Source of the DNA: a virus
Lineage: Duplodnaviria > Caudoviricetes
Reading direction: 5' to 3' (one strand)
Length of the DNA: 61,915 bases
Virus record (IMG/VR): IMGVR_UViG_3300030397_000458
Coordinates: 1-61,915 of that record
Shown here: positions 16,787 through 61,915 of the stretch, piece by piece
Numbering within the stretch: position 1 is the first letter of the stretch
How the letters are laid out: the number at the start of each line of letters is the position of its first letter
Program-made: the position numbers and the translations under genes
The notes under the pieces: model-generated
The model's database searches: none
What the model was told of the DNA's origin: nothing
The model's input: the letters and a program-made list of their open reading frames with translations, nothing else

Positions 16787-16987
16787 ATGGGATTCTCAGG
16801 ATACGTTCACGTCGAGGTAGACATAAAAGCAGAGTCAGATAAGGCATTTCTTATAGTCTACAACGAGAGAGAAATCTGGCTCCCGAAGTCACAGATAGCT
16901 GACAGCGACGACTATAGCAAAGGGGATACAGAGGTGAGCATCGCTATCACTGACTGGATCGCCGAGCAGAACGGGATCACCAGCTAA
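16787..16987 (+). CDS. Small protein inserted within terL
   Basis: 66 aa with ESDKAFLI...WLPKSQI motif. Confidence 0.65.
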   Translation: MGFSGYVHVEVDIKAESDKAFLIVYNEREIWLPKSQIADSDDYSKGDTEVSIAITDWIAEQNGITS

Positions 16988-17017
16988 CACTCCTTCTTTT
17001 TTGCCTCACGATGGACA

Positions 17018-17968
17018 GTGTCCATGACAAACTACTATCGAAAAATCATAAGGATCACAGCAGAAGACTCACCGAATGTACGCTATGGATTAGCTGAAGA
17101 GCAAGCAGGACTGGAACCGTCAAACAAGATCATCATCCCTGGCGTGCTTCCTTACGCCGACTACAAAAAGAGAAGAAAAGTCTGGGACGAGATGAGGCAG
17201 TGCATAGGTCTTGACGCTCTCTTTTATGAGGGAGCAGAAATCATGTTTTTTCCTCGCGAATGGCTCTTACTCTCTGAGCGTAACGCAGTCTTATTAGAGA
17301 ACAGGCAAAGAAAAGCTCGCACAATCGGAATAGATCCAGCAGAAGGCGGAGACTACACAGCATACTGTATTGTTGATGATTATGGTATCATTGATCTGAT
17401 CAGGAAGAAAACACCAGATACTAATGCGATTTTCGAGGATGTGACGACATATATGCACTATTACGGTGTGCGCGCTCATGATGTCTACATCGACAGAGGA
17501 GGAGGAGGAAAGCAGCACGCTGACAGACTCAGAGCATCAGGGTATAAAGTGAAGACTGTCGCGTTTGGGGAACCGGCAACAAGAGAAATGCGTACAGGTA
17601 TGACTCCTCTGGATCAACGTATACATGAGAGAGAGGAGTCATATGTCTACGCTTCGAGACGAGTTGAAATGTATGCTATACTCAGAGAGCTGCTCAATCC
17701 TGCATTCGGTCATAACTTCGCGATACCAAAGAGGTTAATGGATCTCTATCTAAGACAGGAATTAAAGCCTGTCCCGTTCACCTATGGTCCAGAGGGTCGA
17801 TTGATTCTACCACCAAAGAGGAATTTATCAAAAGATGCGAAGAATCCTTCTTTGATTGACCTAATTGGACACAGCCCAGATTGCTCAGACGCATTAGTGC
17901 TCGCCACTTACGGTATGATGAAACGACGATACAAAGCAACAGCAGGTGTGACTTTTTCAAAGTCTTAG
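17018..17968 (+). CDS. terL: Terminase large subunit, C-terminal part (lid + RNase H-like nuclease)
   Basis: EDSPNV, IGIDPAEGGD, IDRGGGG, SPDCSDAL. Confidence 0.85.
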   Translation: MSMTNYYRKIIRITAEDSPNVRYGLAEEQAGLEPSNKIIIPGVLPYADYKKRRKVWDEMRQCIGLDALFYEGAEIMFFPREWLLLSERNAVLLENRQRKARTIGIDPAEGGDYTAYCIVDDYGIIDLIRKKTPDTNAIFEDVTTYMHYYGVRAHDVYIDRGGGGKQHADRLRASGYKVKTVAFGEPATREMRTGMTPLDQRIHEREESYVYASRRVEMYAILRELLNPAFGHNFAIPKRLMDLYLRQELKPVPFTYGPEGRLILPPKRNLSKDAKNPSLIDLIGHSPDCSDALVLATYGMMKRRYKATAGVTFSKS

Positions 17969-18030
17969 CTATAAACGAATAGCAAGATTTTTATTCTTCA
18001 AATTTGGATTCAAAAACAGGAATCAAGCAC

Positions 18031-21000: not shown

Positions 21001-21573
21001 ACACAGCACGCGATAGACTGGGCTGACAGTATGGGGATCAGCCGACCTGTAGCCACGAGGAGCATTGCGCCAACAGGAACGATATCAATCGTAGCTGAGA
21101 CAACATCAGGGATTGAGCCAATTTTCGCAGTCGCGTACAAGAGACGATACCTCAAAAAGAATGACTGGTACTATCAGCATGTGATAGACGCGACTGCGCA
21201 ACGTCTTATACAGTCGGGAGTTAATCCAGATCTGATTGAAGATTCGTACACTCTGAGTGAGGACGTGGAAAGGCGAATCAAGTTTCAGAGATGGATGCAA
21301 GAGCGAGTGGACCACGGTATTTCGAGCACTATCAACTTACCGAAATGGGGCAGCACACTCAACAGCGAGCATACAGTCAAATCATTTGGTGAGAAGCTAT
21401 TACAAGACTTGCCGGGACTGAGAGGGATGACGACATACCCTGATGGCGCACGTCCTGGACAGCCAATAGTACCAATGAGATACACAGAAGCTGTGAAGCA
21501 TATATCGAGAGGAGAAGTGGAAGTAAAGGAAACAGGTGACGAGTCGTGCAAAGGTGGCTTTTGTAATTCCTGA
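18031..21573 (+). CDS. nrdJ: Class II (adenosylcobalamin) ribonucleotide reductase with two inteins
   Basis: PGGRYL, GGGVG, QGGSRR.A, CNL, LGLG.MG, IAPTGTIS, SGIEP, ISSTINLP; no beta subunit in window. Confidence 0.9.
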   Translation: MAAITLAETNPAQSYFARTITQHKYAHTKQGGNKESWEEIASRVAHSVMDHYTHSRNTNHVESLIKDRKLMPGGRYLYASGRKYHQINNCLGGEEKIITIRGVRTLKELAEDGKRFMVLNRFGVWNHATAGCFGKQKLWRIKLSNGDVIRATAAHRWWQADGTRVTTEEVKKIPLCEMTVPGVYLDEEGIKHGICYGDGTTQRHTKTDRLVLAQHKEELSSYFDESRQLKQGLTISKLPKKYKSLPDDRVCSVEYARGFIAGLIATDGSTKTSMITISLSGEKEEAEQVRRLAVLGGCVVNGIWKDKSEETNYGKRSTPLYIISIKPFSAPLIRSDQIQDVHSKELRKTKMYLTVENITEEETEEDVYCCVVPGSESFTLANGLITSNCFLFRADDSREGWAKIMHDTTNALMTGGGVGVVYSDIRGSETLVEGMGGTCSGPLALMRMVNEAGREIMQGGSRRAAIWAGLRWDHPDIKNFVYMKDWPLDLQEMRTKNFNFPCPMDGTNISVILDTQFFKAYRDKSHEKHKLAQKVYWSTVRQMLKTGEPGFSVDIGENEGENNRNAPVHGDTRVLTIQGYRRAYELTEGSHTVWTGNQWAHNITFKRTAENTKTVRVKMTGGREIVCDPSHPFIVQRFSGKGSHRKLDSEERIPAGQLEEGDTIRVSLPVSSGSQQIQSDQAYTMGFIWGDGSLVGKSRAEVAICHESKKPCAERFAGISSKTVDSRGYDRYYFNQNPLYFNQSKERIPDVLKTNRYEWVAEFLAGLFDADGNVDQAQHRIRLSSSKLLFLQECQRLLETLGVLSSINKGSASGYTGNPTWMLVVSASYVKQFLNVVPTVRLKMKTDDWEPYRESTIKVISVTPDQDADVYCCDVKVDEHTFCAEGVIISNCCEVTSRFNGDMCNLSSLNLARYATIEEFSEAVRMGTLLLLCGTMYSKLPIEYMYGVREKTRRLGLGLMGVHEWLLRRGYKYEAGNEELALWMDEYKKSTQHAIDWADSMGISRPVATRSIAPTGTISIVAETTSGIEPIFAVAYKRRYLKKNDWYYQHVIDATAQRLIQSGVNPDLIEDSYTLSEDVERRIKFQRWMQERVDHGISSTINLPKWGSTLNSEHTVKSFGEKLLQDLPGLRGMTTYPDGARPGQPIVPMRYTEAVKHISRGEVEVKETGDESCKGGFCNS
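18298..19194 (+). mobile_element. Intein 1 with LAGLIDADG homing endonuclease
   Basis: NN|CLGGEE...ATAAHRW...FIAGLIATDG...VYC...NGLITSN|C. Confidence 0.9.
19729..20703 (+). mobile_element. Intein 2 (Pro1, non-canonical) with LAGLIDADG homing endonuclease
   Basis: RNA|PVHGDTRV...GFIWGDG...FLAGLFDADG...VYC...HTFCAEGVIISN|CCE. Confidence 0.88.
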
Positions 21574-32014: not shown

Positions 32015-32905
32015 ATGAATCACATTTATGACAACAATAGAAGACGAGAGGACAACGAGCCGACATTAATGCAGATGCTGGCAAAAGCTACAATTTACTA
32101 CGTTGTGCTGATCGTTGTCGTCTATGTTCTGGTATCTCTCTTTCTTTCAGGAAAAGCTCAAGGAGGATACAGACCATCACTAGCTGTCATTCGTGTTCAG
32201 TCACACGGAGCAAGTGCTGTTTGCATCGCGTCGAATAAGCAAGAGAGCTGGCTTCTATCCTGTGCGCATATGTTTGCATACCCACCTGATGGCAGACCAG
32301 GCATCATGAGTTTGAATCCAAATTTGACTCGCAAGCCGATAGTCACTCACTCTGTTCCGCAAAAATATGCAATTAATAGACGAGCTACAGCTACTCTGGT
32401 AGCTGTGTCGGCGCGTGATGACTTGTCTCTCATCAAGATCAACAACGGAACGTATTATTACTGCTCTGTTGCTCCTGTTGGGTTCAGCTACAGCACAAGT
32501 GTCTACTCGTCAGGCTACGACAAAATGAGATGGCCAGTCACAGTTGACAAGACGTTTATTGTGCAAGATGAAACAAGAGGATTCACGTACACGAGAGGGA
32601 GACCAGTACCAGGTAGGTCAGGAGGAGGTCTGTTTGACAGTCGCACAGGCTACGTTGTCGGGATCGTTAAAGGATTCGAGCTGACGAACGGAAGAAGAGG
32701 TATCTACTTGAGTCATGACAGGATCATCAACTTTCTGATCAGAGTAAAGCCAGATTTAGTGCCTGGTTACAGACGCGCACAACAACGCATTAGTACACCA
32801 CAGCAACAATACTACGCACAACCAAAAGCGTATTCTCCGATAGCAAGACGTGCTCCGTTGCCAACATCGCCGATTTCTACGCCACAACCTCCGCCACCAT
32901 GCTGA
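32015..32905 (+). CDS. Membrane-anchored trypsin-like serine protease
   Basis: TM helix, LSCAH, DLSLI and PGRSGGGLF catalytic triad. Confidence 0.85.
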   Translation: MNHIYDNNRRREDNEPTLMQMLAKATIYYVVLIVVVYVLVSLFLSGKAQGGYRPSLAVIRVQSHGASAVCIASNKQESWLLSCAHMFAYPPDGRPGIMSLNPNLTRKPIVTHSVPQKYAINRRATATLVAVSARDDLSLIKINNGTYYYCSVAPVGFSYSTSVYSSGYDKMRWPVTVDKTFIVQDETRGFTYTRGRPVPGRSGGGLFDSRTGYVVGIVKGFELTNGRRGIYLSHDRIINFLIRVKPDLVPGYRRAQQRISTPQQQYYAQPKAYSPIARRAPLPTSPISTPQPPPPC

Positions 32906-32990
32906 AGTGTCGTATCTTACAGAATCGGTCGATTTTACCACACACTGTATAAAAAGTAACAAGACATTCAGAGGAAGAAACGAGCCAACA

Positions 32991-33503
32991 ATGAAAAAGC
33001 TATTATTGTTTCTAGTTCTCGCGACAATCGCAGCTCCACTGACTGCGCAAGTCAAGAATGAGACAACACCAGTCAAAAATTCGTGCTTCTTTTGGAGAGG
33101 GAGGACAGACAGACGTATCCGAGACCTGGAAGAACAGTTGAGGCAAGAGAGACTGCGGAGAGAGGTACAGCCACGGCAAGTAATTCCAGCACCTCCGCCA
33201 CAAGTAATCATCATTCCGCCACGATATCAGCCCAGGGTGGAAGGTAATCCTCGTGTGACTCCACCAGTCGAAGGCAACCCCAGAGTAATGCCACCTGTAG
33301 AAGGTAATCCACGTATCACACCACCCATAGAGGGTAGTCCCAGAATAACTCCGCCAACAGAAGGCAGTCCTCGCATCACACCTACGCCGAGAATTGAGGG
33401 GAGCCCAGGAGTAACGCCAGACGTTGGTGGTGTGCCTTTTATCCGTCTTAGCTCTCCTCCTTATCAGCGACTGACTGTGATCAGGAATGCTTTGTACAGG
33501 TAA
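32991..33503 (+). CDS. Secreted Pro-rich repeat protein
   Basis: MKKLLLFLVLATIAAPLTA signal peptide; repeats of P(V/I/T)EG(N/S)PR.TP. Confidence 0.65.
   Translation: MKKLLLFLVLATIAAPLTAQVKNETTPVKNSCFFWRGRTDRRIRDLEEQLRQERLRREVQPRQVIPAPPPQVIIIPPRYQPRVEGNPRVTPPVEGNPRVMPPVEGNPRITPPIEGSPRITPPTEGSPRITPTPRIEGSPGVTPDVGGVPFIRLSSPPYQRLTVIRNALYR
33235..33420 (+). repeat. About six degenerate 30-nt coding tandem repeats
   Basis: VEGNPRVTPP-type 10-aa units. Confidence 0.8.
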
Positions 33504-52142: not shown

Positions 52143-53609
52143 CTATTCGAGGTCTTCGTCTTCGTACTCGTCGTCGTATTCTTCATCGTCAAGCTCTTCG
52201 TCTTCAAAATCATCCTCCTCATCCTCGTCTGGATCATCAACGACAGGAGCAGAGTTAACTGACTGCTTGGCTTTGAGCTTCTTTGCTATCTTCTTGACCT
52301 CCTCTTTGGCTTCTCTCTCTTCCCTGAGCTGCTCCGCCTGGTCATAGATTTCATCCTCTGTGGGATCATCTTCTGAGTCAGTCATATCAGTCGTTTTCTT
52401 CGCTGCCTTCTCTGACTGCTCTTTCGCTGAGATATCCCCGAAGTCGATTCCACCAGCATCAATGTACGCCGATGGGGCTAAGAAACGATGACCGTCCTGA
52501 TCATCTTCATATTCGAGCTTGAGTCTCTTCTCTGTGAGATTCCTATCCTGGCTCACATGGTTCCACGCAGTGATTAAGAGTAATACTCGCTCGGAGAAGG
52601 AAATCTCAAGCCGTCCAGTCTCAGGGTGGACGTAGCTCGCGTAGACTTTGCGCAATGGCTTCATTTGTGGCGTATCCTGAGCGATGTTAGCCCAGAAGTC
52701 TGCTGCAGCATCCCATGCTGAAAAGTCAAGATATTTTTCAGAAGGTGTGCTTGCTTGCCAGTATTCGTCACCGTCTGACTTACAGCTCGCGAACAAATAC
52801 ATCAGTCCAGCAGCATAGCCTGGTGCGATGTACTCGCTGATACCTTTCTGATCATTCTTTGTCAGTATATGAGAGACACACTCAAGCAGTCTACTGTGTC
52901 GAGCCAGGAAATCGAGACTCTCACTGTGTGTCCTACGTGGAGCAAACGCACTATCACCTGCCCCCGTGCGCGACCACAACAAGCGAATCGCATGATCTGT
53001 CATGGCCGATGCAACTTTACGCTCTGAGCTCTTCATGTGTGAGAAGTATTCGCTGCGATAGATTACGTCCATCAAGGAACGTGGCTTGCACGTATCCATC
53101 GTGTTTACTACTTCGTCCGATTCTTCGACCCCGTACACAACGAGCTTCTCCATTGTGAGAGGTTTCTTGTGCATCTTCTTATAGAATGCACGTCTCTCAG
53201 GATCACGGGTAAGTCTTTCCTGATCGGCCAGAATCAGGCTTATTAGCTGGTGCTGTCCATTGAGTATTAACCCTGTTTCGCCAATGATGATGGGCTCAGC
53301 ATTGAACCGCCATTTCTTGCGAAGGTGCTCCTGAATCAGAGTGTCGATGGTGCCAGAGTAAAGAGGGCGATTGGTCACGTTGTTGGCCAGCCTGACCTTC
53401 GTTCCCTCTCTATCCTTGAGAGCGAAGTCAGACCCGAATGAGACTTCCTCTGTCTCCTCCTCCCAGCCAAGCAGATCAGAGCACTGCTCTACTGTCAGCG
53501 CGTCAGCACCAATGTGCTTGACCACCTCGATCTCTTTGTAGACGATTGGCCGCGAGAGCTGAGTATGAGTAGTCGTCTTTTTCTTCTTTGCTGCTCTTGT
53601 TTTCGGCAT
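52143..53609 (-). CDS. ParB/DGQHR-like domain protein with acidic tail
   Basis: NRPL...W..N.EPIII...G.ILNGQHQL, and D....R motif. Confidence 0.55.
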   Translation of the reverse strand: MPKTRAAKKKKTTTHTQLSRPIVYKEIEVVKHIGADALTVEQCSDLLGWEEETEEVSFGSDFALKDREGTKVRLANNVTNRPLYSGTIDTLIQEHLRKKWRFNAEPIIIGETGLILNGQHQLISLILADQERLTRDPERRAFYKKMHKKPLTMEKLVVYGVEESDEVVNTMDTCKPRSLMDVIYRSEYFSHMKSSERKVASAMTDHAIRLLWSRTGAGDSAFAPRRTHSESLDFLARHSRLLECVSHILTKNDQKGISEYIAPGYAAGLMYLFASCKSDGDEYWQASTPSEKYLDFSAWDAAADFWANIAQDTPQMKPLRKVYASYVHPETGRLEISFSERVLLLITAWNHVSQDRNLTEKRLKLEYEDDQDGHRFLAPSAYIDAGGIDFGDISAKEQSEKAAKKTTDMTDSEDDPTEDEIYDQAEQLREEREAKEEVKKIAKKLKAKQSVNSAPVVDDPDEDEEDDFEDEELDDEEYDDEYEDEDLE

Positions 53610-53730
53610 AGTACATATCCTTCTTTTTGTTGAGCCAGTATGTACTGGCTGAAGTGTGAGTGAGGCCCAGCGACAATGCCAGGCCTCAAGTAATCGTAGG
53701 CGGATCTGAATCCAAATTCAAGGTGCGTTG

Positions 53731-54060
53731 CTAAAAGTGCACCTCTTGATTCCTCATCTCTCTCTCAAATTCTTCTCTATCGAGCCCTACAACCTTATCT
53801 GATAAAGAGTCATAGAAGAGAGGAGTCAAACCCTTTGTATCAGAGGGATTATCTGAGATAACAAGAACCTTACCATTTTTCAGAGCCCCGATACGCCAGG
53901 GCTGGTCACCATGAGGCGAATCAAACTGAAAGATGGTGTACTCTGTGGCAGGGTAATGGAAGATCTGAAGCACATGGCGAATGCGAGACAGGTCAAGAGG
54001 AGTCATGACCAGGTCAGGTTGGAAATCAAATGAAAAGTCGGTTCTAGGTCGGGTAATCAT
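53731..54060 (-). CDS. Hypothetical protein
   Basis: ORF in early arm. Confidence 0.55.
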   Translation of the reverse strand: MITRPRTDFSFDFQPDLVMTPLDLSRIRHVLQIFHYPATEYTIFQFDSPHGDQPWRIGALKNGKVLVISDNPSDTKGLTPLFYDSLSDKVVGLDREEFEREMRNQEVHF

Positions 54061-54141
54061 ATTACTCTCTTTCAGGAAAAGGAAGACGGGAAGGCGAAAA
54101 AAGAGCCACTAGCACAACACCAGTGACTCAGAGTCTCACTC

Positions 54142-54606
54142 TCAGTTGATCCTGTTGCCGTTGAGGAGCAGAGGAGCCTGCTCACTCGCGATGCGCTGAA
54201 CCTGAGCTGTCAGAACCTTCAGATGCTTATTCGCTGTCTGTGGTGTCATGTCGCACCTGGTCGTCAACGTCTGTTTCAAATCTGACTCCAGTTCTTCTGC
54301 TTCCATCTCCAAGAAATCAAGCTCAAACTGATCCCGCCTCTGCTCTGCGAGACTCTTCAAGATCTCAATCTGAGCCCTCTGTTTCGAGAAGGCTCGCAAC
54401 ACGACCATGCGCGTCTGCCGCTGAATCGTGGTCTCGGCAATAGCTAGAATTGCTTTCGTGCCTGACAGCATCGTGTCAAGTGTGTTGCCAAGAGTCTCGT
54501 TGACGACATCAAGAACCTGATCGACTGTTGCGTTGACTTTCTCCTGGCTGTTCTGCGCAGCCTGGATCTGCTCGTTTGTGAGGTGTTGTGACATATCTTT
54601 CTCCAT
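54142..54606 (-). CDS. Hypothetical coiled-coil protein
   Basis: ORF in early arm; start uncertain. Confidence 0.55.
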   Translation of the reverse strand: MEKDMSQHLTNEQIQAAQNSQEKVNATVDQVLDVVNETLGNTLDTMLSGTKAILAIAETTIQRQTRMVVLRAFSKQRAQIEILKSLAEQRRDQFELDFLEMEAEELESDLKQTLTTRCDMTPQTANKHLKVLTAQVQRIASEQAPLLLNGNRIN

Positions 54607-54665
54607 AGTAGTGTAAACTGAATCCAAAAACAGAGGGAGAGCGTTTCTCCCTCTCTAGTGAAACG

Positions 54666-55208
54666 TTAGTTATCTGCGTCCTCTTCTATCTCTCTAACAA
54701 AATCGTTAAGAAGATCCATACCCTTAGTTGAGCTGCGACTATATGCTTTGTAAGCTGTCTCCAACCCGGATGGAATCTCTTGACCTAGCGATAGGTAGAG
54801 ATTCCTTACGGCCACCAATAATGCGCGGAATGTGTGGTAGTCTCTGTTAGCTTTTTCGCTCTTGCTCACCCTTTTCTGTGTCGATCTCATAGTTAGACCT
54901 ACGGTCTTGCATGCGTTCCTGAGGGTACAAGAAGACACGTCAATACCCATTGAAGCGATGACCTCTCCGAGCACTTTTTGTATCCCAAACTTCTTTTCTA
55001 TAAACTCCTCCTTTCGCTCCTTGAGGAGCTCGCACAATTGGTAAAACTGTTCATGTGTCAATGCTCTACTTCGTCTCTCGCTCATCACATATCCCTCTGA
55101 TAAGGTTGAATGTTGTGGCTCCAACAACTGGAACCACATTCCGCCGATCTCTCTCCCTACTCCGATTCTGGCTGGTCTGCCTCTGACTGGCTCTGAGTCA
55201 ATGTACAC
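54666..55208 (-). CDS. Hypothetical protein
   Basis: ORF; true start probably internal (MSERR). Confidence 0.5.
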   Translation of the reverse strand: MYIDSEPVRGRPARIGVGREIGGMWFQLLEPQHSTLSEGYVMSERRSRALTHEQFYQLCELLKERKEEFIEKKFGIQKVLGEVIASMGIDVSSCTLRNACKTVGLTMRSTQKRVSKSEKANRDYHTFRALLVAVRNLYLSLGQEIPSGLETAYKAYSRSSTKGMDLLNDFVREIEEDADN

Positions 55209-56113
55209 TTTGTCGGACGCTTGAAGAATCCGAAGTTGTCGCCTGGATTCTTGACAGAGATTCGAGCTGTCAATACAACTCTGTCACCTTTGGACGGTCC
55301 AGCATCATCTTCTGTCGTGTAATCTAGTCCAGTCAGAGCCGAGCTGGGCAACGTGCCCCAGACCAGGAAACCACGATCATCCTTGATCGTGACCTTGCAG
55401 GCATACTCGTCATAGTACGCCAGTCCCACAACTCGCCAGTCTACCTTGATGATGGTGCCTTCAATGCGATGTCGTCCATCCAGCAGCTCTTCTGGAACCG
55501 CTACGGTCTCGGGCTTAGCTGGCTCAGAGCTTCCACCAATCAGCCTCTCTGTGAATCGCTTCGCGAGCGAAAGAAAGTAGCTCCTCTGATTGGTGGACCA
55601 CTTACCAAATTTCATCATTTTGTCGTGGATGTCGATCATGACTCCATCCATCGACGAAGTAGCCTGGTCACGATGCTCTTCGACGTAGTCCCAAGCTATT
55701 GCCAGTTCTTCATCTTCTGACATCTGATTAATGAACGCTTCTGAAGCTCGCTTCTTCCAGCCGTCGATCCTGGCCAGGTGTGTGCCTCTCTTCTCTGCGC
55801 GAGCTCGGAGCATCTCGGCTCGTGAGGTGTAAGAGAAAGTTGATGCAGCACACTGGTGGCCAATGATGTAATGCAGTCCCGTTTCAGCGTGCTGATAGAT
55901 CACGCCATGTCCGAAAATTGCTCCGCAGTGGTCGCATTTGTTGCCCTGGACACCCTTTGAATGCCCATCTCTTGCTCTGAGCATAGACAGAAAATTCTCG
56001 TGAACGTCATCCATCTGGTTCGCGAGCTCAGCATAAGCTGCTCTGGTGAATGCATGGCGACCACAGTAGTAGATGCCGCGATACTGGAACAGGGCTGGAT
56101 TCGGGTTGTGCAT
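55157..56113 (-). CDS. Hypothetical Zn-binding / OB-fold protein
   Basis: CDHCG...GHQC; C-terminal OB-like region ending F.RPTK. Confidence 0.6.
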   Translation of the reverse strand: MHNPNPALFQYRGIYYCGRHAFTRAAYAELANQMDDVHENFLSMLRARDGHSKGVQGNKCDHCGAIFGHGVIYQHAETGLHYIIGHQCAASTFSYTSRAEMLRARAEKRGTHLARIDGWKKRASEAFINQMSEDEELAIAWDYVEEHRDQATSSMDGVMIDIHDKMMKFGKWSTNQRSYFLSLAKRFTERLIGGSSEPAKPETVAVPEELLDGRHRIEGTIIKVDWRVVGLAYYDEYACKVTIKDDRGFLVWGTLPSSALTGLDYTTEDDAGPSKGDRVVLTARISVKNPGDNFGFFKRPTKCTLTQSQSEADQPESE

Positions 56114-56152
56114 GGTTTTCCTTTGAGTAGGGGTTGTGTCTTACCTATGGTT

Positions 56153-56180
56153 ATACTAGCATGACCAGACACGATGTCAA
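56153..56180 (-). promoter_or_regulatory. Sigma70-like early promoter
   Basis: TTGACA-N16-TAGTAT with TG extension, AT-rich upstream element. Confidence 0.75.
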
Positions 56181-56199
56181 GCAAATTTTTGAGAATTTC

Positions 56200-56976
56200 T
56201 CAAAAAGTGACAAACCGAAAACCGATGTCGCTGAAACGGAAGGACGGAACGTTGCTGCCGCGGGACGCGCAGCAACAGAAGCGAGGGTAGATGAGCCAAG
56301 AACCGCCACGGTATACTTGCAAAGACTCATCAGTGTGTGGATCGTGGCACCATTCCCAAACATTACCGATCATATCGTAGAGACCGTACTGATTTGACAT
56401 TTTCCTCCTGACGCTGTGTAACCTTCCTTGACTATTACCGCTATGCCAGGCAATGGCGTCTATATCATCATGGTATTGATCTCCTTCTGTCCCTCCTCTG
56501 CACGCGTATTCCCATTCTGCCTCTGTGGGAAGACGAAACTGGAGCTTTGGTTGTGGCTTGAAGATATTCATCGAATCACAGAAGTCAACGCATTCGTCAT
56601 ATGAGACCTGAGTAACCGGGCTGTCATCCCATGAATCTTGTAAGTGACCGAGACCCCTTACGTTATTCCATTGGAGGACCGTGCAAGGGGTCTCATCCAT
56701 CCAGAAACCCTGGTGAGAATCAGTCTCCAGAGGAACCCACCTCAGACTGATCATCATCTGGTTGATTCTGTAACAGGCCCACAGGCCATAACTATCTCTT
56801 CCCCATACGTCAGCCCACAGAGCTGCTGTGCCTGGAAGAAATCGGAATTTGTCAGCTTCTGCTGGTTGGTCATGGTCGTCCAACCAATCAGCGTACACCA
56901 GACGATGCACGTCGTCGCCTGGCTCTTCTCGAATTCTTTGTTTGAATAAATCGTGAGACATATCATATTCCCTCAC
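56200..56976 (-). CDS. TIGR02996-domain + FGE-sulfatase (CLec) protein
   Basis: IREEPGDDVHRLVYADWLDD; RLPTEAEWEYACRGG, GLYDMIGNVWEW, RGGSW, GFR. Confidence 0.88.
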   Translation of the reverse strand: MREYDMSHDLFKQRIREEPGDDVHRLVYADWLDDHDQPAEADKFRFLPGTAALWADVWGRDSYGLWACYRINQMMISLRWVPLETDSHQGFWMDETPCTVLQWNNVRGLGHLQDSWDDSPVTQVSYDECVDFCDSMNIFKPQPKLQFRLPTEAEWEYACRGGTEGDQYHDDIDAIAWHSGNSQGRLHSVRRKMSNQYGLYDMIGNVWEWCHDPHTDESLQVYRGGSWLIYPRFCCCASRGSNVPSFRFSDIGFRFVTF

Positions 56977-57226
56977 TAATCAGAGACTCCAGATCGGAAA
57001 GCCATGCATTATGATCATAAGTGTAGATTTTGTTCTTCAGACGGAAGTATGCTTCTGTTAGGAGGTCAAGCCCTCTGGTGGCGCGAGACTCCCAATCTTT
57101 CGACGTGAAACTGTAGACCTTCCTCATCGTACCATCCTCTCGGACAGTGAGGCGAGCCGACCAGTGCTCTGATTCGAGCTTGAACATGACTCGGCTCTCA
57201 TCTGTTTTCACTACGATATTGAACAT
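56963..57226 (-). CDS. Hypothetical protein
   Basis: RBS GAGGAG. Confidence 0.6.
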   Translation of the reverse strand: MFNIVVKTDESRVMFKLESEHWSARLTVREDGTMRKVYSFTSKDWESRATRGLDLLTEAYFRLKNKIYTYDHNAWLSDLESLISEGI

Positions 57227-57322
57227 GAAACTCCTCTTGAATTTGAATCCAAAAACGGAACGTAGAATTGAGCGAATGAGAAAGTAAGGGCGACTAACGA
57301 GGGCGCGGGCTGACTACCTCAA

Positions 57323-57505
57323 TCAATAAGCCTCATCAAGCCAGGGATACTCGCGAGACTCTGTGCAGTGGTCGAGAGCTCCGTCATTGTACGCTTCCCA
57401 TTCATCCGAACCATATTCATATGGATTCAGCTCCATTCCGTCCTGAGAATCCTCTGCGCCTTGTTGGTAAGCTCGCACCAGGTTGATGTTTGGCTGTCGT
57501 GACAT
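57323..57505 (-). CDS. Small protein with NPY...W..G motif
   Basis: AYQQG...NPYEYGSDEWEAYNDG; RBS GAGGAG. Confidence 0.6.
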   Translation of the reverse strand: MSRQPNINLVRAYQQGAEDSQDGMELNPYEYGSDEWEAYNDGALDHCTESREYPWLDEAY

Positions 57506-57555
57506 ATCTAACTCCTCTAAAATGAAAATAGGTGTAAGGCGAAAAACAGGCTACT

Positions 57556-57666
57556 CTAACCGTCGATCCAGTCATTCAGTTTCGAGGCGATCCACTTAAC
57601 TGTGCGAGTCTCGCAAACCAGGGAAACGACTACTGCGCCGATGAAAGGAAGAAGAACGTAGAGCAT
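57556..57666 (-). CDS. Small membrane peptide (36 aa)
   Basis: MLYVLLPFIGAVVVSLVC..., read manually. Confidence 0.45.
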   Translation of the reverse strand: MLYVLLPFIGAVVVSLVCETRTVKWIASKLNDWIDG

Positions 57667-57735
57667 GTGATACCCCAAAAAGTAGGTAGAGAGAAAGAAG
57701 ACTGCTGGCAACAGCTCAGCAGTCACTGAATCGCG

Positions 57736-57828
57736 CTAATTCGTGCTGATCCATCCCCAGGCAACCAGCCTGTCAACGATGATTCCTGACGTGGTGACGA
57801 TTGCGACGATGGAAAGAACTGTGAACAT
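57736..57828 (-). CDS. Small membrane peptide (30 aa)
   Basis: MFTVLSIVAIVTTSGII..., RBS AAGGGAG, directly behind a promoter. Confidence 0.5.
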   Translation of the reverse strand: MFTVLSIVAIVTTSGIIVDRLVAWGWISTN

Positions 57829-57877
57829 GCGATGCTCCCTTGTGAGTAAGGAATTTTTGTTGTCTCTACTTTTTAAT

Positions 57878-57904
57878 AGTATAACTAACCGAGAAGGAAG
57901 TCAA
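57878..57904 (-). promoter_or_regulatory. Sigma70-like early promoter (variant)
   Basis: TTGACT-N15-TATACT with the same AT-rich upstream tract. Confidence 0.5.
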
Positions 57905-57924
57905 GCGAATTTTCAAAAAAAAAA

Positions 57925-58722
57925 TTAAGTAAGGCAGACAAGGCGAAAGCCCAGGATGAGGCACCTGTACGACGGGTTGAGGCTGATGCGGTACGCCGCT
58001 CGACAGAACAGGCCGCTGCTGAACCAGCTCCCGCCCCGGCTCACACGCTCGGTTCCGGTCGGCTCCACAGGATCTACCTGATTCTCGTTTGTATATTCTC
58101 TCTGCCCATCATGACACCATTCCCACACATTGCCCAACATGTCAAACAATCCCCATTCATTCGGTTTCTTCTGCTTGACTGGATGTGTCTCTCCGCCACT
58201 GTTCCCACCATGCCAGGCAATGGCATCCAAATTATCCGAATATCTCGCTCCTTCTGTCCCTGTTCGACACGCATACTCCCACTGGGCTTCTGTTGGCAAC
58301 TGAAGATCGAGTTCTGGTATTACCTGATTCACCTTGGTCAGAAATACCTGACAATCCTCCCAGCTCACACTCTCGACTGGCCGATCTTTTCCTTTGAAGT
58401 GGCTGGGATTCTCACCCATTACGGCTTCCCAAAGCTCCTGCGTACACTGACTGTCAAACATCCAGAAACCTTGAGTGATTTGCACCTGATGCCGTGGCCC
58501 TTCATCTGCGTCACGTCCTTCTTCATCCTCAGGTGAGCCCATCCAGAATGTGCCAGGCTGAATCCGACGCATTCGCTGCTTGACTCCATCTATCAAAAAG
58601 TCAGCCCAAACTCCGTACTGGTCAACACCAACCTTATCTGACCAGTACGGAGGATTGTCTTGTATCCAGTCTATGAAAACAGACTGGGACACAGGATCAT
58701 CTGCTGTTACTCGGAATTTCAT
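57925..58722 (-). CDS. FGE-sulfatase (CLec) protein
   Basis: PGTFWMGS, PVESVSW, LPTEAQWEYACR, GLFDMLGNVWEW, RGGSW, GFRL; start ATG 58722 with AAGGAG. Confidence 0.9.
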   Translation of the reverse strand: MKFRVTADDPVSQSVFIDWIQDNPPYWSDKVGVDQYGVWADFLIDGVKQRMRRIQPGTFWMGSPEDEEGRDADEGPRHQVQITQGFWMFDSQCTQELWEAVMGENPSHFKGKDRPVESVSWEDCQVFLTKVNQVIPELDLQLPTEAQWEYACRTGTEGARYSDNLDAIAWHGGNSGGETHPVKQKKPNEWGLFDMLGNVWEWCHDGQREYTNENQVDPVEPTGTERVSRGGSWFSSGLFCRAAYRISLNPSYRCLILGFRLVCLT

Positions 58723-58726
58723 CTTT

Positions 58727-59101
58727 TTACTCCTTATCGAATGTGAACTCTCTATGATCCACCCAGAAAAAATATCGGTAGTCATCCTCCTGCCAGCCAC
58801 AAGTCTTAGCGGGATTCCCCGCATGGGCAGAGGGGAGACGACGGAAGACCAAGCACGTCTTCTCTCTATCTTGATAAATCTCACAGCAGAAGGGCCACGA
58901 GCTCTTCTCCGTGTCCTGACACTCAATCAAGACATCGAACGTATCAGCATCAACGTCTCTCACATGAAATACAGTGCAGAGAGTCTGAGCGCTAAGTTGA
59001 ACCTGGGCACTGGTGACGCGCAAGTAAGGGAGCATCTGCTCCATTAGCTCGACAGAGACACGATGACGATAGACTGGCTTTTCTCTTACAAGACTTCTCA
59101 T
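58727..59101 (-). CDS. Hypothetical protein
   Basis: Coupled to neighbouring ORFs. Confidence 0.55.
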   Translation of the reverse strand: MRSLVREKPVYRHRVSVELMEQMLPYLRVTSAQVQLSAQTLCTVFHVRDVDADTFDVLIECQDTEKSSWPFCCEIYQDREKTCLVFRRLPSAHAGNPAKTCGWQEDDYRYFFWVDHREFTFDKE

Positions 59102-59343
59102 TATTTATTCTTCCTATTCTTCAATTTGAATCCAAATTTGATCAATGCGACTGGTGCCGCGACAACGAGACAGGACACTGAAAGGCAAGGGCCAGGTGTG
59201 AACCAGTCGATAATCGAGCAGGCAGTAAACGCTGCCTTCTCGGCTCGTTCACCGAATGCAACTCCGACAACCTTTGATGAGATCAGAGGAACAGTGTTGA
59301 TGATTTTGTAAGCTTGCTTGGCTCGACTGGTGAATTTCGACAT
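59101..59343 (-). CDS. Small membrane protein
   Basis: Hydrophobic C-terminal half; directly behind a promoter. Confidence 0.55.
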   Translation of the reverse strand: MSKFTSRAKQAYKIINTVPLISSKVVGVAFGERAEKAAFTACSIIDWFTPGPCLSVSCLVVAAPVALIKFGFKLKNRKNK

Positions 59344-59393
59344 TGCCTGGCTTCCTTGTGAGTAAGGAAAAAACGTTGATCTCTCTGATGGTT

Positions 59394-59422
59394 ATACTAG
59401 CATCATCAGAGAGCAACGTCAA
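59394..59422 (-). promoter_or_regulatory. Sigma70-like early promoter within inverted repeat
   Basis: TTGACG-N17-TAGTAT; arms CTCTCTGATG/CATCAGAGAG. Confidence 0.75.
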
Positions 59423-59785
59423 GGGAAATTTTCAAAAAATCAATCAGCACCATCGGATAAAGGAGGAGATGGTGACGAGCTTACCTCGATCATCTCGCCT
59501 GGCTGTGTAACCATCGTCGATAGTGACAACAATTGGCTGAGGCTGGCACCCTGATCTCAAGATCTGCGCAACCTCTCTTGACACGATGACGACGTCTCCT
59601 GGATCAACCTCCTCTGGAATCCCCGTGACGTCCCGTTGAATCGGGACAACGGTCTCGAATCGTCCATGAACCGTGACAAGAGGTGGCCTGATCTGTACAA
59701 AGGTGTTGACGCTGGCAGTGCCAACAGACCTCCACTGGTACCTCGTCCGTCCGTCATCATAGTTGACATCCGATCCAGTGAGGTT

Positions 59786-60002
59786 CTAGACCTCAGGGAC
59801 AGGGACGATCTCCATAGACCAGCCATTGGAATGACTGTAGTCGTCAGAAGAGGCCATCTCTACAGCATCCTCCCTGGTGTCGAACTGGCGAGCATCCTCC
59901 CAATCTGGCGAAACGCTCCCGATGTCTGTCAGATAACCGCTCATGTCGCCGATCTCAGGATTAGGTTCCAGGTCGGTTAACTTTACTTGATACTTCATCA
60001 TA
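59786..60002 (-). CDS. Hypothetical protein
   Basis: MMKYQVK start behind GGAG RBS; start approximate. Confidence 0.5.
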
Positions 60003-60119
60003 TTCTCCAAAAAACGTGTGAATCTGAATCCAAATTTGAAACGTAGAACAGAAGAAAAAGTAGGGTAAGGTGTGCCTCTCGTGCACTGTTCCCTACTTTC
60101 TCTCTCTTTCAGGAAAAAA

Positions 60120-60413
60120 TCACTCGTTAACCGACACTTCAGGGATCTCCATGTCACGGGCAAAGTCGATGACTTTTCGCAACATCGTCCAGGCAGCGAG
60201 CTGCTCGGTCATCGTGTCGATAACTTCGTCAACGTAGAGCTCCTCTCCGCAATTCGAGCATTCGACCAGGCAGTCCGTAGCAGTCAAGTCATACATAAGG
60301 TGAGTAGTCTCGTCTCTACATGATGGGCACTGGATGCTAGTGTGATTCAGCATGGTGGTCTCCGTGTTGTGAGGAACAAAAAATCGAAACAAAAAAGACA
60401 AGGGCAAGGGCAA
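60120..60413 (-). CDS. Zn-ribbon protein
   Basis: CPSC...CSNC; true start probably internal (MLNH). Confidence 0.6.
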   Translation of the reverse strand: MPLPLSFLFRFFVPHNTETTMLNHTSIQCPSCRDETTHLMYDLTATDCLVECSNCGEELYVDEVIDTMTEQLAAWTMLRKVIDFARDMEIPEVSVNE

Positions 60414-60431
60414 GGACTCTTTCTTTCTTTC

Positions 60432-60734
60432 TTACTTTCTGGCCACCATCTCGTTGGCCAAGCCCATCAATCTCTTGCTCTGGATCAGTGTCCCTAAGGA
60501 CATCAAAAACAGTGCTGTGTTGATCTCTCGTTGTCTCGTCAGCTTCTCGGATCCACTGATCCTTGAGCTAATGGCAATCAAGACTGCAAACAAGATCGAC
60601 AAGGGCAGACAGACGAGTGCAGCGGTAATCTCAAGAATCCCTCTGACGATGTGATAGCCGATTGGCCGATCTGATGCTGTCAGTGCCTGTGCATCTGCGA
60701 TTGCGTTGGTGTGGATTCGATTGAACTGGCTCAT
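60432..60734 (-). CDS. Membrane protein
   Basis: TM helices; RBS GGAG; directly behind a promoter. Confidence 0.6.
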   Translation of the reverse strand: MSQFNRIHTNAIADAQALTASDRPIGYHIVRGILEITAALVCLPLSILFAVLIAISSRISGSEKLTRQREINTALFLMSLGTLIQSKRLMGLANEMVARK

Positions 60735-60776
60735 GTTTTTCTCCGTTTTGAGGAACGTTGTTTCTGATCTATAGTT

Positions 60777-60804
60777 ATACTAGCACAGATCAGAACAGAG
60801 TCAA
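60777..60804 (-). promoter_or_regulatory. Sigma70-like early promoter within inverted repeat
   Basis: TTGACT-N16-TAGTAT; arms TTCTGATCT/AGATCAGAA. Confidence 0.75.
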
Positions 60805-61130
60805 GAGAAATTTTCAAAAAAAGAAAAATTTTTTCTGGGCTAACTGTGGACCCCATCCTGGTCGGAAAAATGGAGTCTCAACATCTTCTCTCGAGCTACG
60901 CCTGGCTCGCAAGCAGGACGATCAGGATACACGGCCAGATGCTTGACCAGGTAGTACGTCGCGATAAGGCAAGTGACAAGAGTGATCATGTGCGACTCCT
61001 CAATTTTGAATCCAAAAACGAAACGTAGAATTGAGAGCAATTCCAGGTAAGGTACTGCTCTCAATTGAAAGTGAGCTGGCAGACTGATACCTCGCGTGCA
61101 TCGTCGTCTGCCAGCTCACTCAGAGAATCA

Positions 61131-61650
61131 TCACGCTGTATAGAGAGTCAACTCGTTGATCTCTGGCAATTCGTCGATCATCTCTTTCAGAGAAGTGAAA
61201 CAATAAACAAGTCCGTCAATCTCAAGACCGATCAGAGCTGACGAATCACCAGCGGCTGTACAGAGGTGACTCTCGCCATCGTAGTTGATCTCCAGCCTGC
61301 CGTATCTGTAGCAGTTTTTTGCCTGACCTGGAAACGACAGTCGAGCTTCACGGTCGGAAGTAACACAATGGTTACTCAGTCCGGGAATGTAACCCGCGAC
61401 TGTCTCCAAAAAAGCTCGTCTCTGATCGACTCGGCGATAATGCTCAAGAATAGCCTCTGTGTACATCAGCTCTCGAGCAAAATCCTCCTGATTACTCTTG
61501 TTGAGCTTGCTTCTTCCTAGAATTCCCTCCTCACGTAAGAGCTGACGGAGCTCTGTGAGAGGGCATCGGGTCAGATAATCAAGGCAGCCCTGTCGGGTAC
61601 TACATCTGTCCATGCCGGTCAGATGAGAGATAGTCATTCGTGTGGTCATG
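61131..61650 (-). CDS. Hypothetical protein
   Basis: Start MTTRM behind AGGAG RBS; start approximate. Confidence 0.55.
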
Positions 61651-61705
61651 TGTGTCTCCTGTGAGAAGGAAGAAAAAAGAAAAACTCGTTTCGTGTCTGT
61701 TAGTA

Positions 61706-61733
61706 ATACTAGCATAATCTCGATTCGTGTCAA
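61706..61733 (-). promoter_or_regulatory. Sigma70-like early promoter
   Basis: TTGACA-N16-TAGTAT. Confidence 0.75.
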
Positions 61734-61899
61734 GCGGAGAAAAACTTTTTTAGCGAAAAACCTGGATTCCAGGCAGCTCACATATGCGTTTAACCCTTGT
61801 TTTTGGCCTTAAAGTCGATGTCAAAGTTTTTTCGAGAATCTCTCTTGAAACCTGAAAATCAAGCTGAATTCGAGACTTGGCGCACTGCACTACTCTCCG

Positions 61900-61915
61900 G
61901 ATCGTGACTGGGAAA
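61900..61915 (-). other. Amplification primer/adapter (artefact)
   Basis: GATCGTGACTGGGAAA is the reverse complement of the primer at position 1. Confidence 0.92.

What the first reader, a model, noticed from the sequence alone, without database searches (positions are those of the whole stretch)
56200..58050. Two CLec/FGE genes with DGR-style variable regions but no RT or template in the window
Seen: the last 35-40 codons of both genes (about 56200-56316 and 57925-58044) are GC-richer than their surroundings. Codons at the usual variable positions are NNC: TGG-CTC-ATC-TAC...TTC...TCC-CGC-GGC-AGC-AAC...TTC-CGT-TTC-AGC-GAC and TGG-TTC-AGC-AGC...TTC...TAC-CGC-ATC-AGC-CTC-AAC...TAC-AGG-TGC-CTC-ATC. 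Established: DGR adenine mutagenesis of AAC codons gives NNC in CLec VRs. The invariant codons differ between the two genes, implying different templates. They are early non-structural genes rather than tail fibres, and I found no RT, Avd or TR. Inference: targets diversified in trans by a host DGR, captured relics, or a DGR in the missing segment.
Basis: partly seen in the sequence, partly recalled or inferred. Interest (0 to 1): 0.76.

Follow-up and report, generated by a model that had tools for sequence, protein, structure and literature searches.

The report
Orphan DGR-written lectin genes in phage
Two early genes of this phage encode lectin-like binding proteins whose tips carry the clear footprint of a reverse-transcriptase mutator (a DGR) that the assembled phage genome does not contain, a pattern that recurs in other, complete phage genomes.

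Summary
Genes g1 (56200-56961, minus strand) and g2 (57925-58722, minus strand) are TvpA-like FGE/C-type-lectin-fold proteins. At the 13 codons that are AAC in real templates of this family, g1 has 12 of 13 and g2 has 13 of 13 NNC codons (P = 1e-6 and 6e-11 against their own gene bodies). The two blocks are the two most extreme of 16,372 codon windows in the phage.

The whole 61.9-kb record (CheckV 87% complete) has no RT, Avd or template. The two variable regions cannot share one template.

No matching template turned up in 243 related loci, in scaffold-motif scans of IMG/VR (both genes) or JGI contigs (g2), or in 401 Planctomycetota genomes.

New context: 0 of 32 large viral records that encode homologues have an RT. 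Fifteen of those are at least 90% complete, and 5 of the 15 carry blocks with 10 or more NNC codons. The complete GenBank phage MW202622.1 also has no RT.

So the engine is probably not phage-borne. The best guess (about 0.4) is writing in trans by a DGR resident in the host cell. The rivals are frozen relics (about 0.3) and a DGR in the unassembled 13% (about 0.2). Only assembled contigs could be laid, so whether the regions are being rewritten now could not be tested.

This scan has reported orphan DGR-written phage genes before, on other DNA.

The parts
56200..56961 (-). g1: 253-aa protein with an N-terminal TIGR02996 domain and an FGE/C-type-lectin fold that lacks about 25 residues at its start; the C-terminal end is the variable region
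   Evidence: ORF. This exact 253-aa product is in the protein collection as a one-member cluster seen on 3 contigs. PF03781 E = 3.8e-34, profile positions 74-254 of 255. Best solved relative is TvpA, 2Y3C, at 1.8e-20. 37% identical to g2, with an internal gap.
56851..56955 (-). g1 residues 3-37: TIGR02996 'repeat-companion' domain
   Evidence: NCBIfam TIGR02996.1, 44.6 bits against a cut-off of 29.05. The family is over its cut-off in 3 of 151 sampled Planctomycetota genomes and in 0 of 14 control genomes.
56215..56307 (-). g1 variable-region core: the 31-codon block from GGSW to GFR
   Evidence: 12 of 13 canonical sites are NNC. Adenine fraction is 0.09-0.10. The block ranks 1 of 16,372 windows.
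57925..58722 (-). g2: 265-aa protein with a full FGE/C-type-lectin fold; the C-terminal end is the variable region
   Evidence: ORF. The 265-aa product is in the protein collection. PF03781 E = 2.2e-39. A profile of its family matches TvpA, 2Y3C, at 7e-49; the next best is an FGE at 3e-30.
57940..58068 (-). g2 variable region: a GC3-rich, A-poor patch of about 130 nt; the 31-codon core is 57943-58035
   Evidence: 13 of 13 canonical sites are NNC. Scaffold GC3 is 15 of 18 against 0.48 in the gene body (p = 0.006). The sliding profile rises at about codon 220 and falls after GFR.
56153..56180 (-). sigma-70-like promoter directly downstream of g1 (TTGACA, 16 nt, TAGTAT, with TG), preceded by a 10-bp AT-rich inverted repeat across the g1 stop codon
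   Evidence: Promoter scan, 10 of 12 matches. Fold. It is not a GC-rich DGR-type hairpin.
57876..57904 (-). sigma-70-like promoter directly downstream of g2, a member of a repeated T-tract plus TTGAC early-promoter family
   Evidence: Promoter scan, 9 of 12 matches. Repeat family D10 has copies at 57892-57921, 59410-59439 and 60792-60821.

Best explanation
What the genes are. g1 and g2 are paralogous, cytoplasmic, TvpA-like lectin-fold binding proteins with no signal peptide visible in the sequence. They are transcribed from the phage's leftward early block.

How the tips were written. Their last 100-130 nt are variable regions written by DGR mutagenic retrohoming. A cDNA copied from a template repeat, with random bases placed opposite template adenines, replaced the 3' end of each gene and turned AAC codons into NNC. 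The two genes were written from two different templates.

Where the engine is. The engine (RT, accessory protein, templates) is not on the phage. The regions are orphan or remote targets, served, now or until recently, in trans by one or more DGRs resident in the infected cell, either in its chromosome or in a co-resident prophage.

Shown: the DGR footprint, the fold, the need for two templates, and the absence of any engine from the record and from complete phages with homologues.

Inferred: that the engine is cellular, and that it acts across genomes.

My odds: the regions are DGR-written, about 0.93. The engine is not encoded by this phage, about 0.75. The full statement including trans writing, about 0.4.
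For: Footprint:
- 12 of 13 and 13 of 13 NNC codons at sites defined from real templates. Scaffold codons are nearly free of adenine. The two blocks rank 1 and 2 in the phage.

Family:
- The best solved relative of both genes is the DGR variable protein TvpA.
- Homologues are hypervariable at exactly these columns. The median share of NNC is 0.77 in 83 bacterial blocks and 0.92 in 66 viral blocks, against a body C3 of about 0.28-0.31.
- The nearest viral homologues of g2 (L077 and L078, 49% identical) sit in a true cassette with an RT, one template and three variable regions.

Engine absent from the phage:
- No RT, Avd or template in the 61.9-kb record.
- 0 of 32 viral records of 41 kb or more that encode homologues have a PF00078 match. 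Fifteen are at least 90% complete. Five of those 15 carry blocks with 10 or more of 13 NNC codons, for example L149 and L110 with 13 of 13.
- The same search does find the RT in the L077 and L094 records.
- The complete circular phage MW202622.1 has a 49%-identical gene in its early region with 11 of 13 NNC codons. It has no RT, and its best template candidate has 33 misfits of 117.
- Complete Microcystis phage Ma-LMM01 also has such a gene and no RT.

Recent writing rather than old relics:
- The gene bodies are at most 46% (g1) and 64% (g2) identical to any of 5.8 billion clustered proteins.
- Yet the C-ending state has not drifted toward the bodies' own C-versus-T usage (P = 1.3e-3 and 3e-6).

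Writing without a nearby engine happens in relatives:
- Four viral contigs (L084, L087, L089, L103) have near-identical gene bodies but four different variable-region alleles.
- There is no RT in any of the four records, and no template in the two 21-22-kb contigs (L084, L087), which were the only ones scanned.
- Their variable regions fit the template of another viral cassette (L094) with only 2-3 non-adenine misfits in the core.

Trans action is established within one genome and from a plasmid:
- PMC10907252 and PMC5758913, passages read.
Against: - No template fitting either variable region was found anywhere I looked:
  - 243 related loci; the best real template has 17-18 non-adenine misfits of 96.
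  - Scaffold-motif scans of IMG/VR and, for g2, of JGI metagenome contigs.
  - 401 sampled Planctomycetota genomes for each region; the best match is 71% over 103 nt, which is generic family likeness.
- The host is unknown. The only hint is g1's TIGR02996 domain.
- No variation was seen. The contigs of run X1 show no other letters (X1 may be the source sample). A contig of run X7, from another study in 2025, covers 57937-58128 with 0 differences.
- No GC-rich inverted repeat follows either region. Such repeats are reported for only 127 of 372 DGRs (PMC5758913).
- Writing across genomes, from a cell's DGR onto a phage gene, has not been demonstrated in anything I read.
- The record is incomplete, so the phage's own DGR is not excluded.
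Confidence: 0.4

Rival explanations
1. Frozen relics. The two genes were taken from DGR-bearing genomes, or the phage lineage lost its DGR. The variable regions are now ordinary fixed sequence that still encodes two useful binding specificities.
For: - No engine and no template were found anywhere.
- The g2 region is identical in a contig of an independent 2025 run (X7).
- All sampled words of the stretch are present in three samples of the 2016 study.
- MW202622.1 and MW202658.1 differ at 1 of 3816 bases around their homologue, and not in its variable region.
- In 40 of 46 pairs of near-identical viral genes the variable region is identical.
- Targets that persist without RT or TR are documented in Treponema denticola isolates (PMC4891356, passages read).
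Against: - Identity across samples is weak evidence. Cassettes with RT and template (L094-L097, L077/L078) are also identical across metagenomes, and contigs hide minor variants.
- Both regions are pristine, with 12 of 13 and 13 of 13 NNC codons and 0 and 1 adenines at 18 scaffold third positions. Yet the gene bodies are far from every known homologue. This reading therefore needs two recent captures from unsampled donors, or a very recent loss of two templates.
Confidence: 0.3
2. The phage has its own DGR, with two templates or two cassettes, in the roughly 13% of the genome that is not in the record. It serves g1 and g2 as non-adjacent targets.
For: - CheckV estimates 87% completeness.
- Both contig ends are the same 17-nt non-phage sequence in inverted orientation, so the ends are artificial.
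- A contig of run X1 runs on 79 letters past position 61902.
- Non-adjacent targets within 50 kb are described for phage-associated DGRs (PMC5758913, passage read).
- Viral cassettes with homologous targets exist (L077, L094).
Against: - 0 of 32 large viral records with homologues, including 15 that are at least 90% complete, and 2 of 2 complete GenBank phages tested, have any RT.
- Two different templates would have to fit into about 9 kb.
- No third, tail-fibre-type target exists in the window.
- The window already holds replication, packaging, head and tail modules.
Confidence: 0.2
3. Not DGR-related. The codon pattern comes from composition or selection on an ordinary FGE-family binding site.
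For: FGE-family C-termini are rich in Arg, Gly, Ala and Pro, which raises GC by itself. g1's scaffold GC3 is not above its gene body.
Against: - The excess is specific to C at the third position of exactly the 13 template-AAC sites. It is significant against scaffold codons in the same block (Fisher p = 0.003 and 0.0001).
- It is also significant against body NNY usage.
- The two blocks are the top two outliers in the genome.
- The family's closest solved structure is a DGR variable protein.
Confidence: 0.04

Closest known systems
Treponema denticola DGR and its variable protein TvpA (PDB 2Y3C), with remote targets and isolates that keep targets but lack RT and TR (PMC4891356)
   Same: TvpA is the best solved relative of both genes. 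It has the same FGE-type C-type-lectin fold with a C-terminal variable region. That species also has targets far from the cassette, and 'target genes' in isolates without RT or template (passages read).
   Different: Those are bacterial lipoproteins. Here the proteins have no signal peptide and sit in a phage's early gene block. For T. denticola the template is known from sister isolates; here no template is known at all.
Bordetella phage BPP-1 DGR (mtd, avd, TR, brt)
   Same: A phage-borne gene with a C-type-lectin-fold C-terminus rewritten at template adenines. The description comes from PMC5758913, introduction passages.
   Different: BPP-1 diversifies a tail-fibre protein from a cassette directly beside it, and has an IMH followed by a GC-rich inverted repeat. 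Here the genes are non-structural, the record holds no cassette, no such repeat follows the regions, and two templates are required.
Viral DGR cassettes in IMG/VR contigs behind loci L077/L078 and L094-L097
   Same: They are among the closer viral homologues of g2 (49% for L077/L078, 47% for L094-L097), with the same block layout. Each has an RT and a template. L077 has three targets on one template.
   Different: Those have the engine within 2 kb of the target. Their templates misfit the window's regions at 18 or more of 96 non-adenine positions.
Trans-acting DGRs of Thiohalocapsa PB-PSB1 (PMC10907252)
   Same: Incomplete loci and remote targets whose variable regions fit a template elsewhere and are diversified in nature. 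The targets are FGE/CLec sensor domains of conflict systems (passages read). Purple sulfur bacteria are among the sources of g2's bacterial homologues.
   Different: There the engine and the targets share one genome. Here the target is on a virus and the engine would be in another replicon.
Orphan homologues in complete phages: MW202622.1 (Manatee Spring, 44.6 kb, circular), Microcystis phage Ma-LMM01 gp062, and IMG/VR records behind L110, L120, L124, L126 and L149
   Same: Small FGE-fold genes with NNC-type C-termini in phage genomes that have no RT. In MW202622.1 the gene also sits among small early genes.
   Different: They are at most 49% identical to g2, and their variable-region scaffolds are unrelated. 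Most carry one such gene where this window has two. Their own records annotate them only as hypothetical protein or 'kinase'.

Membership tests
DGR target (variable protein) of the FGE-type C-type-lectin class | C-terminal FGE/C-type-lectin-fold domain | tested here: met
   PF03781 at 3.8e-34 (g1) and 2.2e-39 (g2). The best PDB relative is TvpA, 2Y3C, at 1.8e-20 for g1 and 7e-49 for the g2-family profile. A structure model could not be obtained.
DGR target (variable protein) of the FGE-type C-type-lectin class | Variable region at the 3' end whose variable codons are NNC at the sites that are AAC in templates, with adenine-poor scaffold | tested here: met
   12 of 13 and 13 of 13 NNC codons. 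P = 1e-6 and 6e-11 against body C3. Ranks 1 and 2 of 16,372 windows.
DGR target (variable protein) of the FGE-type C-type-lectin class | A cognate template repeat that differs from the variable region only at template adenines | tested here: not met
   None in the record: the best candidates have 38 misfits of 131 and of 136. None in 243 related loci. No hit in IMG/VR (both genes) or JGI contigs (g2) with scaffold motifs. None in 401 Planctomycetota genomes per region. The source samples' full assemblies and the host genome could not be searched.
Complete DGR cassette | DGR-type reverse transcriptase in the same replicon | tested here: not met
   PF00078 gives 0 matches in the 61,915-nt record. 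The same search finds the RT in the L077 and L094 records. The record is about 87% complete.
Complete DGR cassette | Accessory gene (Avd or equivalent) | tested here: not met
   PF05635 gives 0 matches. No such domain in 20 ORFs of the early block and the window start.
Complete DGR cassette | IMH at the end of the variable region, and a GC-rich inverted repeat downstream | tested here: inconclusive
   IMH cannot be delimited without a template. No GC-rich hairpin lies within about 80 nt downstream. There is only an AT-rich 10-bp repeat and a promoter after g1. The repeat is reported for only 127 of 372 DGRs (PMC5758913).
Active DGR target | Population-level hypervariation confined to the template-adenine positions | tested here: inconclusive
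   Only assembled contigs of four runs could be laid. No variants appear in X1, and X7 is identical over the g2 region. Contigs drop minor variants, and RT-bearing cassettes also look invariant in assemblies.
TIGR02996 domain-containing proteins | Match to the TIGR02996 model above its curated cut-off | tested here: met
   g1 residues 3-37 score 44.6 bits against a cut-off of 29.05. g2 does not reach the threshold.
Catalytic formylglycine-generating enzyme (SUMF1/FGE) | Active-site cysteine pair and copper or substrate site | not tested
   Only relative scores are available. True FGEs score far below TvpA (3e-30 against 7e-49; 2.3e-9 against 1.8e-20). No residue-level check was made.

The most novel reading that the evidence does not exclude
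Phages of several lineages carry small, early-expressed, intracellular lectin-fold binders whose binding tips are rewritten not by the phage but by DGRs of the cells they infect. That would be retrohoming across genomes. The virus would then borrow the host's own hypermutation engine, the same engine that diversifies the FGE-type sensor domains of bacterial conflict systems. It could use it to keep evolving binders or decoys against host targets. This window would be a case with two such genes served by two templates.
Probability: 0.3. Interest if true: 0.85.

Novelty: new variant of a known kind. Interest (0 to 1): 0.56.

Why it matters
DGRs are the only known natural system of targeted protein hypermutation in prokaryotes and their viruses. 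In the large survey I read in passages (PMC8144416), phage targets are mostly tail proteins. By its authors' own statement, that survey could not detect targets away from the RT.

Here the footprint sits on two early, non-structural, cytoplasmic proteins of a phage that shows no engine. The same state holds in every large viral record with a homologue that I could test (0 of 32 with an RT).

If the tips are still being written, a mobile virus is using a mutator encoded by another genome. That would widen what DGRs are thought to act on, and it would bear on phage-host conflict.

If the tips are frozen, phages are collecting ready-made binding specificities produced by cellular DGRs.

Either way these genes are candidates for phage proteins that bind host factors early in infection. 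The Ma-LMM01/Microcystis pair offers a cultured system in which to test this.

My searches of the paper library found no paper describing RT-less phages with DGR-written early genes. Supplementary tables of PMC5758913 and PMC8144416 were not seen and may list such cases.

Tried and rejected
Closing the gap:
- The last gene of the window, searched in JGI metagenome contigs, found no relative.
- The exonuclease gene found no relative in IMG/VR.
- A 17-nt phage motif gave 16 single hits in IMG/VR, about what chance gives, and I did not compare them with the window.
- The portal protein's best match among cultured phages is 33% identical, to a haloarchaeal virus, so no close cultured relative exists.

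Reads:
- Only Logan contigs were served, so the test for minor alleles could not be made.
- For run X5, a 98%-alike contig spans g1. The list of its differences between 53257 and 58431 was cut from the output, so the state of g1's variable region there is unknown.
- X5 has little or no cover over g2, and X6 has none over 53000-56277. I draw nothing from these gaps.

Arguments considered and dropped:
- 'A GC-rich patch proves a GC-rich foreign template.' Adenine avoidance alone explains g1, and g2 is only marginal (and a hand calculation).
- 'Identity of the variable region across samples proves inactivity.' Cassettes that carry an RT behave the same way.
- Host assignment from TIGR02996. The domain is over its cut-off in only 3 of 151 Planctomycetota sampled, and other phyla were not tested. 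The TIGR02996 genes I fetched from one such genome carry long non-FGE C-terminal parts (leucine-rich by eye, no domain scan made).

First-pass screens:
- The first regex screen for VR/TR pairs found pairs in only 4 of 150 viral loci and 7 of 77 bacterial loci. The RT regex is a crude motif recalled from memory, and no conclusion rests on it.

Structure prediction:
No model, fold search or surface mapping was made.
- No complex prediction was attempted.
Full report
THE WINDOW

The window is one whole IMG/VR virus record of 61,915 bases. It is linear, with CheckV completeness 87%.

PHROG matches give a tailed-phage layout:
- On the plus strand: a replication module (resolvase, exonuclease, Sak4-like annealing protein, DNA polymerase, primase), then small and large terminase, portal, head and tail genes with a tape-measure protein, and sugar-modifying enzymes.
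- From about 50.2 kb to the end: a leftward block of small genes with almost no family matches.

The two genes of the finding lie in that leftward block. g1 is 56200-56961 and g2 is 57925-58722, both on the minus strand. Each is followed directly by a sigma-70-like promoter for the next gene, and these promoters belong to a repeated T-tract/TTGAC family (family D10). 'Early, non-structural' is therefore a reasonable reading, but it is inferred from position and promoters, not measured.

Both proteins match PF03781 (3.8e-34 and 2.2e-39). The last 35-45 codons are GC-richer and strongly adenine-poor.

To test 'the usual variable positions' without relying on memory, I took real templates from related viral cassettes found here (L094 and L032). 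They read GGSW-NNN-xx-N-xxxx-N-x-NNNN-P-x-N-x-NNN-xGFR, with AAC at 13 sites.

At those 13 sites:
- g1 has 12 NNC codons and g2 has 13.
- Their own gene bodies have C at the third position in 26% and 16% of codons (P = 1e-6 and 6e-11).
- The excess also holds against the bodies' C-versus-T choice at NNY codons (P = 1.3e-3 and 3e-6).
- It holds against the scaffold codons inside the same block (Fisher p = 0.003 and 0.0001).

Among 16,372 windows of 31 codons in 69 ORFs, the two blocks rank first and second for high C3 with low A. No third such region exists, for example in tail genes.

THE FAMILY

A profile of g2's homologues, and g1 alone, both find the Treponema denticola DGR variable protein TvpA (2Y3C) as best solved relative (7e-49 and 1.8e-20). 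This is well ahead of true formylglycine-generating enzymes.

The homologues (4,816 and 7,858 proteins at E <= 0.001) are conserved throughout, except at exactly the canonical columns, where no residue reaches a majority. Their codons there are NNC in a median of 77% (83 bacterial blocks), 92% (66 viral blocks from the g2 search) and 85% (20 viral blocks from the g1 search), against about 28-31% C3 in their bodies.

The closest viral relatives of g2 (L077 and L078, 49% identical) sit in a real cassette with three variable regions, one template and an RT.

g1 and g2 are paralogues (37% identity). g1 lacks about 25 residues at the start of the fold. It carries an N-terminal TIGR02996 domain (44.6 bits, cut-off 29.05), as does its nearest relative P0002.

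NO ENGINE IN THE RECORD

- No RT.
- No Avd.
- No RT or Avd domain in 20 neighbouring ORFs.
- No repeat family touching the regions.
- No sequence that fits either region under the rule 'same base or A'. The best non-self candidates have 38 misfits of 131 and of 136.

The two regions differ at 43 of 105 aligned bases. Of these, 26 lie outside the canonical variable bases, and 13 of those 26 are third positions. One template cannot have written both.

LOOKING FOR THE ENGINE ELSEWHERE

- None of 243 loci fetched by homology holds a fitting template. The best real templates have 17-18 non-adenine misfits of 96.
- Scaffold motifs of both regions have 0 hits in IMG/VR. The g2 motif has 0 hits in JGI metagenome contigs.
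- BLAST of each region against 401 sampled Planctomycetota genomes gave only generic family likeness for g2 (best 71% over 103 nt) and nothing for g1.
- These searches can see about 70% matches, so a true template would probably have been seen in the genomes searched.
- The host is unknown, and the tools may leave out records close to the window's own.
- Attempts to find the missing part of the genome failed.
- Both contig ends are the same 17 letters in inverted orientation. From recall, this is a random-amplification primer. A contig of run X1 continues 79 letters past 61,902. So the record is truncated artificially.

READS

Only assembled contigs were served.
- Run X1 may be the source sample and shows no other letters.
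- A contig of run X7 (another study, 2025) covers 57937-58128, which includes g2's variable region, with 0 differences.
- A contig of run X5 spans g1 with 89 differences in 4,489 bases, but the positions between 53257 and 58431 were not listed.
- This looks like stasis, but it is weak evidence. Among 46 pairs of near-identical homologous genes from different viral contigs, the variable region is identical in 40, and these include the cassettes that do carry an RT and a template (L094-L097, L077/L078).

BASE RATES, THE MAIN NEW RESULT

I took every viral record of 41 kb or more among the 150 viral loci (32 records) and searched each whole record for PF00078. None has a match. Fifteen of the 32 are at least 90% complete, and four have terminal repeats. 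The same search finds the RT in the L077 and L094 records.

Of the 32 records:
- 20 have a block of canonical length.
- 11 have at least one block with 10 or more of 13 NNC codons.
- Among the 15 near-complete records, 9 have a canonical block and 5 have one with 10 or more NNC codons. These are the records behind L110 and L149 (13 of 13), L124 and L126 (two genes each), and L120.

In GenBank:
- The complete circular phage MW202622.1 has a 49%-identical gene among its small early genes with 11 of 13 NNC codons, no RT, and no template (best candidate 33 misfits of 117).
- Complete Microcystis phage Ma-LMM01 has gp062 with a similar end and no RT.

So RT-less phages carrying DGR-type lectin genes are common, and a hidden cassette need not be invoked here.

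IS WRITING STILL GOING ON?

Two points speak for recent writing.

First, the gene bodies are far from everything known. g1 is at most 46% identical by alignment (40% by BLAST), and g2 at most 64%. Yet the synonymous C-ending state is intact, and scaffold third positions hold 0 and 1 adenines of 18, where 23-25% would be expected.

Second, one related group of viral contigs (L084, L087, L089, L103) shows what active writing without a nearby engine looks like:
- The gene bodies differ at 2 to 27 of about 400 bases, but there are four different variable-region alleles.
- There is no RT in any of the four records. There is no template in the two 21-22-kb contigs (L084, L087), the only ones scanned for one.
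- All four records are fragments (2-34% complete), so their engine could still be phage-borne.
- Their variable regions fit the template of another viral cassette (L094) with 24-27 adenine-type changes and only 2-3 other misfits in the core.

VERDICT ON MECHANISM

I am confident (about 0.93) that both regions were written by a DGR, from two templates. I think it likely (about 0.75) that the engine is not encoded by this phage.

Between writing in trans by a DGR of the infected cell (about 0.4) and frozen relics (about 0.3) the evidence does not decide. A phage-borne DGR in the missing segment keeps about 0.2.

Trans action within a genome and from a plasmid is documented (PMC10907252 and PMC5758913, passages). 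Targets that outlive their engine are documented in T. denticola (PMC4891356, passages). Writing across genomes onto a virus is not, in the papers I searched.

COMPARISON WITH THE KNOWN

The genes work like, and by fold and footprint belong with, FGE-type DGR variable proteins (TvpA class). They fail the tests for a complete DGR locus, because RT, accessory gene and template are absent from the record.

[quoted passage not shown] They are early and cytoplasmic, there are two of them with different templates, and they have no engine.

This scan has reported the same kind of thing on other DNA (e1-6015444, e1-6159175, e1-5839014). Those are unchecked notes, and I did not use them as evidence.

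I rate this a new variant of a known kind, of moderate to good interest.

Noticed in passing
window 1-17 and 61899-61915: Both ends of the record are the same 17-letter sequence in inverted orientation. From recall it is a random-amplification (round A/B type) primer, so the contig ends are artificial and should be trimmed. A contig of run X1 continues 79 letters past 61902 with phage-like sequence.
   Followed up: partly
window, 22 sites on both strands (e.g. 21830, 27220, 30469, 40415, 47297, 57243, 61006): The 11-mer TTGAATCCAAA occurs 22 times against 0.06 expected by chance. It is often a few bases upstream of a ribosome-binding site and start codon. It may be a phage-specific regulatory or processing site.
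   Followed up: partly
window 53000-53256, inside the 488-aa gene 52143-53609 (minus strand): The contig of run X5 that is otherwise about 98-99% alike shows 31 differences in these 257 bases. This is a locally hypervariable or recombined stretch in an unannotated early gene.
   Followed up: no
window 57489-58576: Relatives differ in the g2 region. A contig of run X6 is nearly identical over 58576-61899 (5 other letters, 1 gap) but leaves the window inside g2's 5' part. Another X6 contig matches only conserved pieces of g2, with many changes. The g1-g2 region may be a swap hot spot among related phages.
   Followed up: no
window 16154-21573: Only the ORF 17018-17968 matches large terminase, and only profile positions 453-600 of 807. 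It is preceded by an unassigned 205-aa ORF and followed by an unusually long (1189 aa) ribonucleotide reductase. The terminase may be split, or there may be inserted elements.
   Followed up: no
window 33237-33356: A 30-nt unit repeats about four times (three overlapping 60-nt copies) inside ORF 32850-33503 of the tail region (family D6).
   Followed up: no
loci L084, L087, L089, L103 and L094-L097 (IMG/VR contigs): Four contigs from four metagenomes carry one gene with four different variable-region alleles. None of the four records has an RT, and neither of the two 21-22-kb contigs scanned holds a template. The alleles fit the template of a cassette on other viral contigs with only 2-3 non-adenine misfits in the core.
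   Followed up: partly
NC_008562.1 41679-42509 (locus L259 3932-4762): gp062 of the cultured Microcystis phage Ma-LMM01, annotated 'kinase', is an FGE-fold protein with a DGR-like C-terminal block. The complete 162-kb genome has no RT. No paper in the library holds both 'Ma-LMM01' and 'diversity-generating'.
   Followed up: partly
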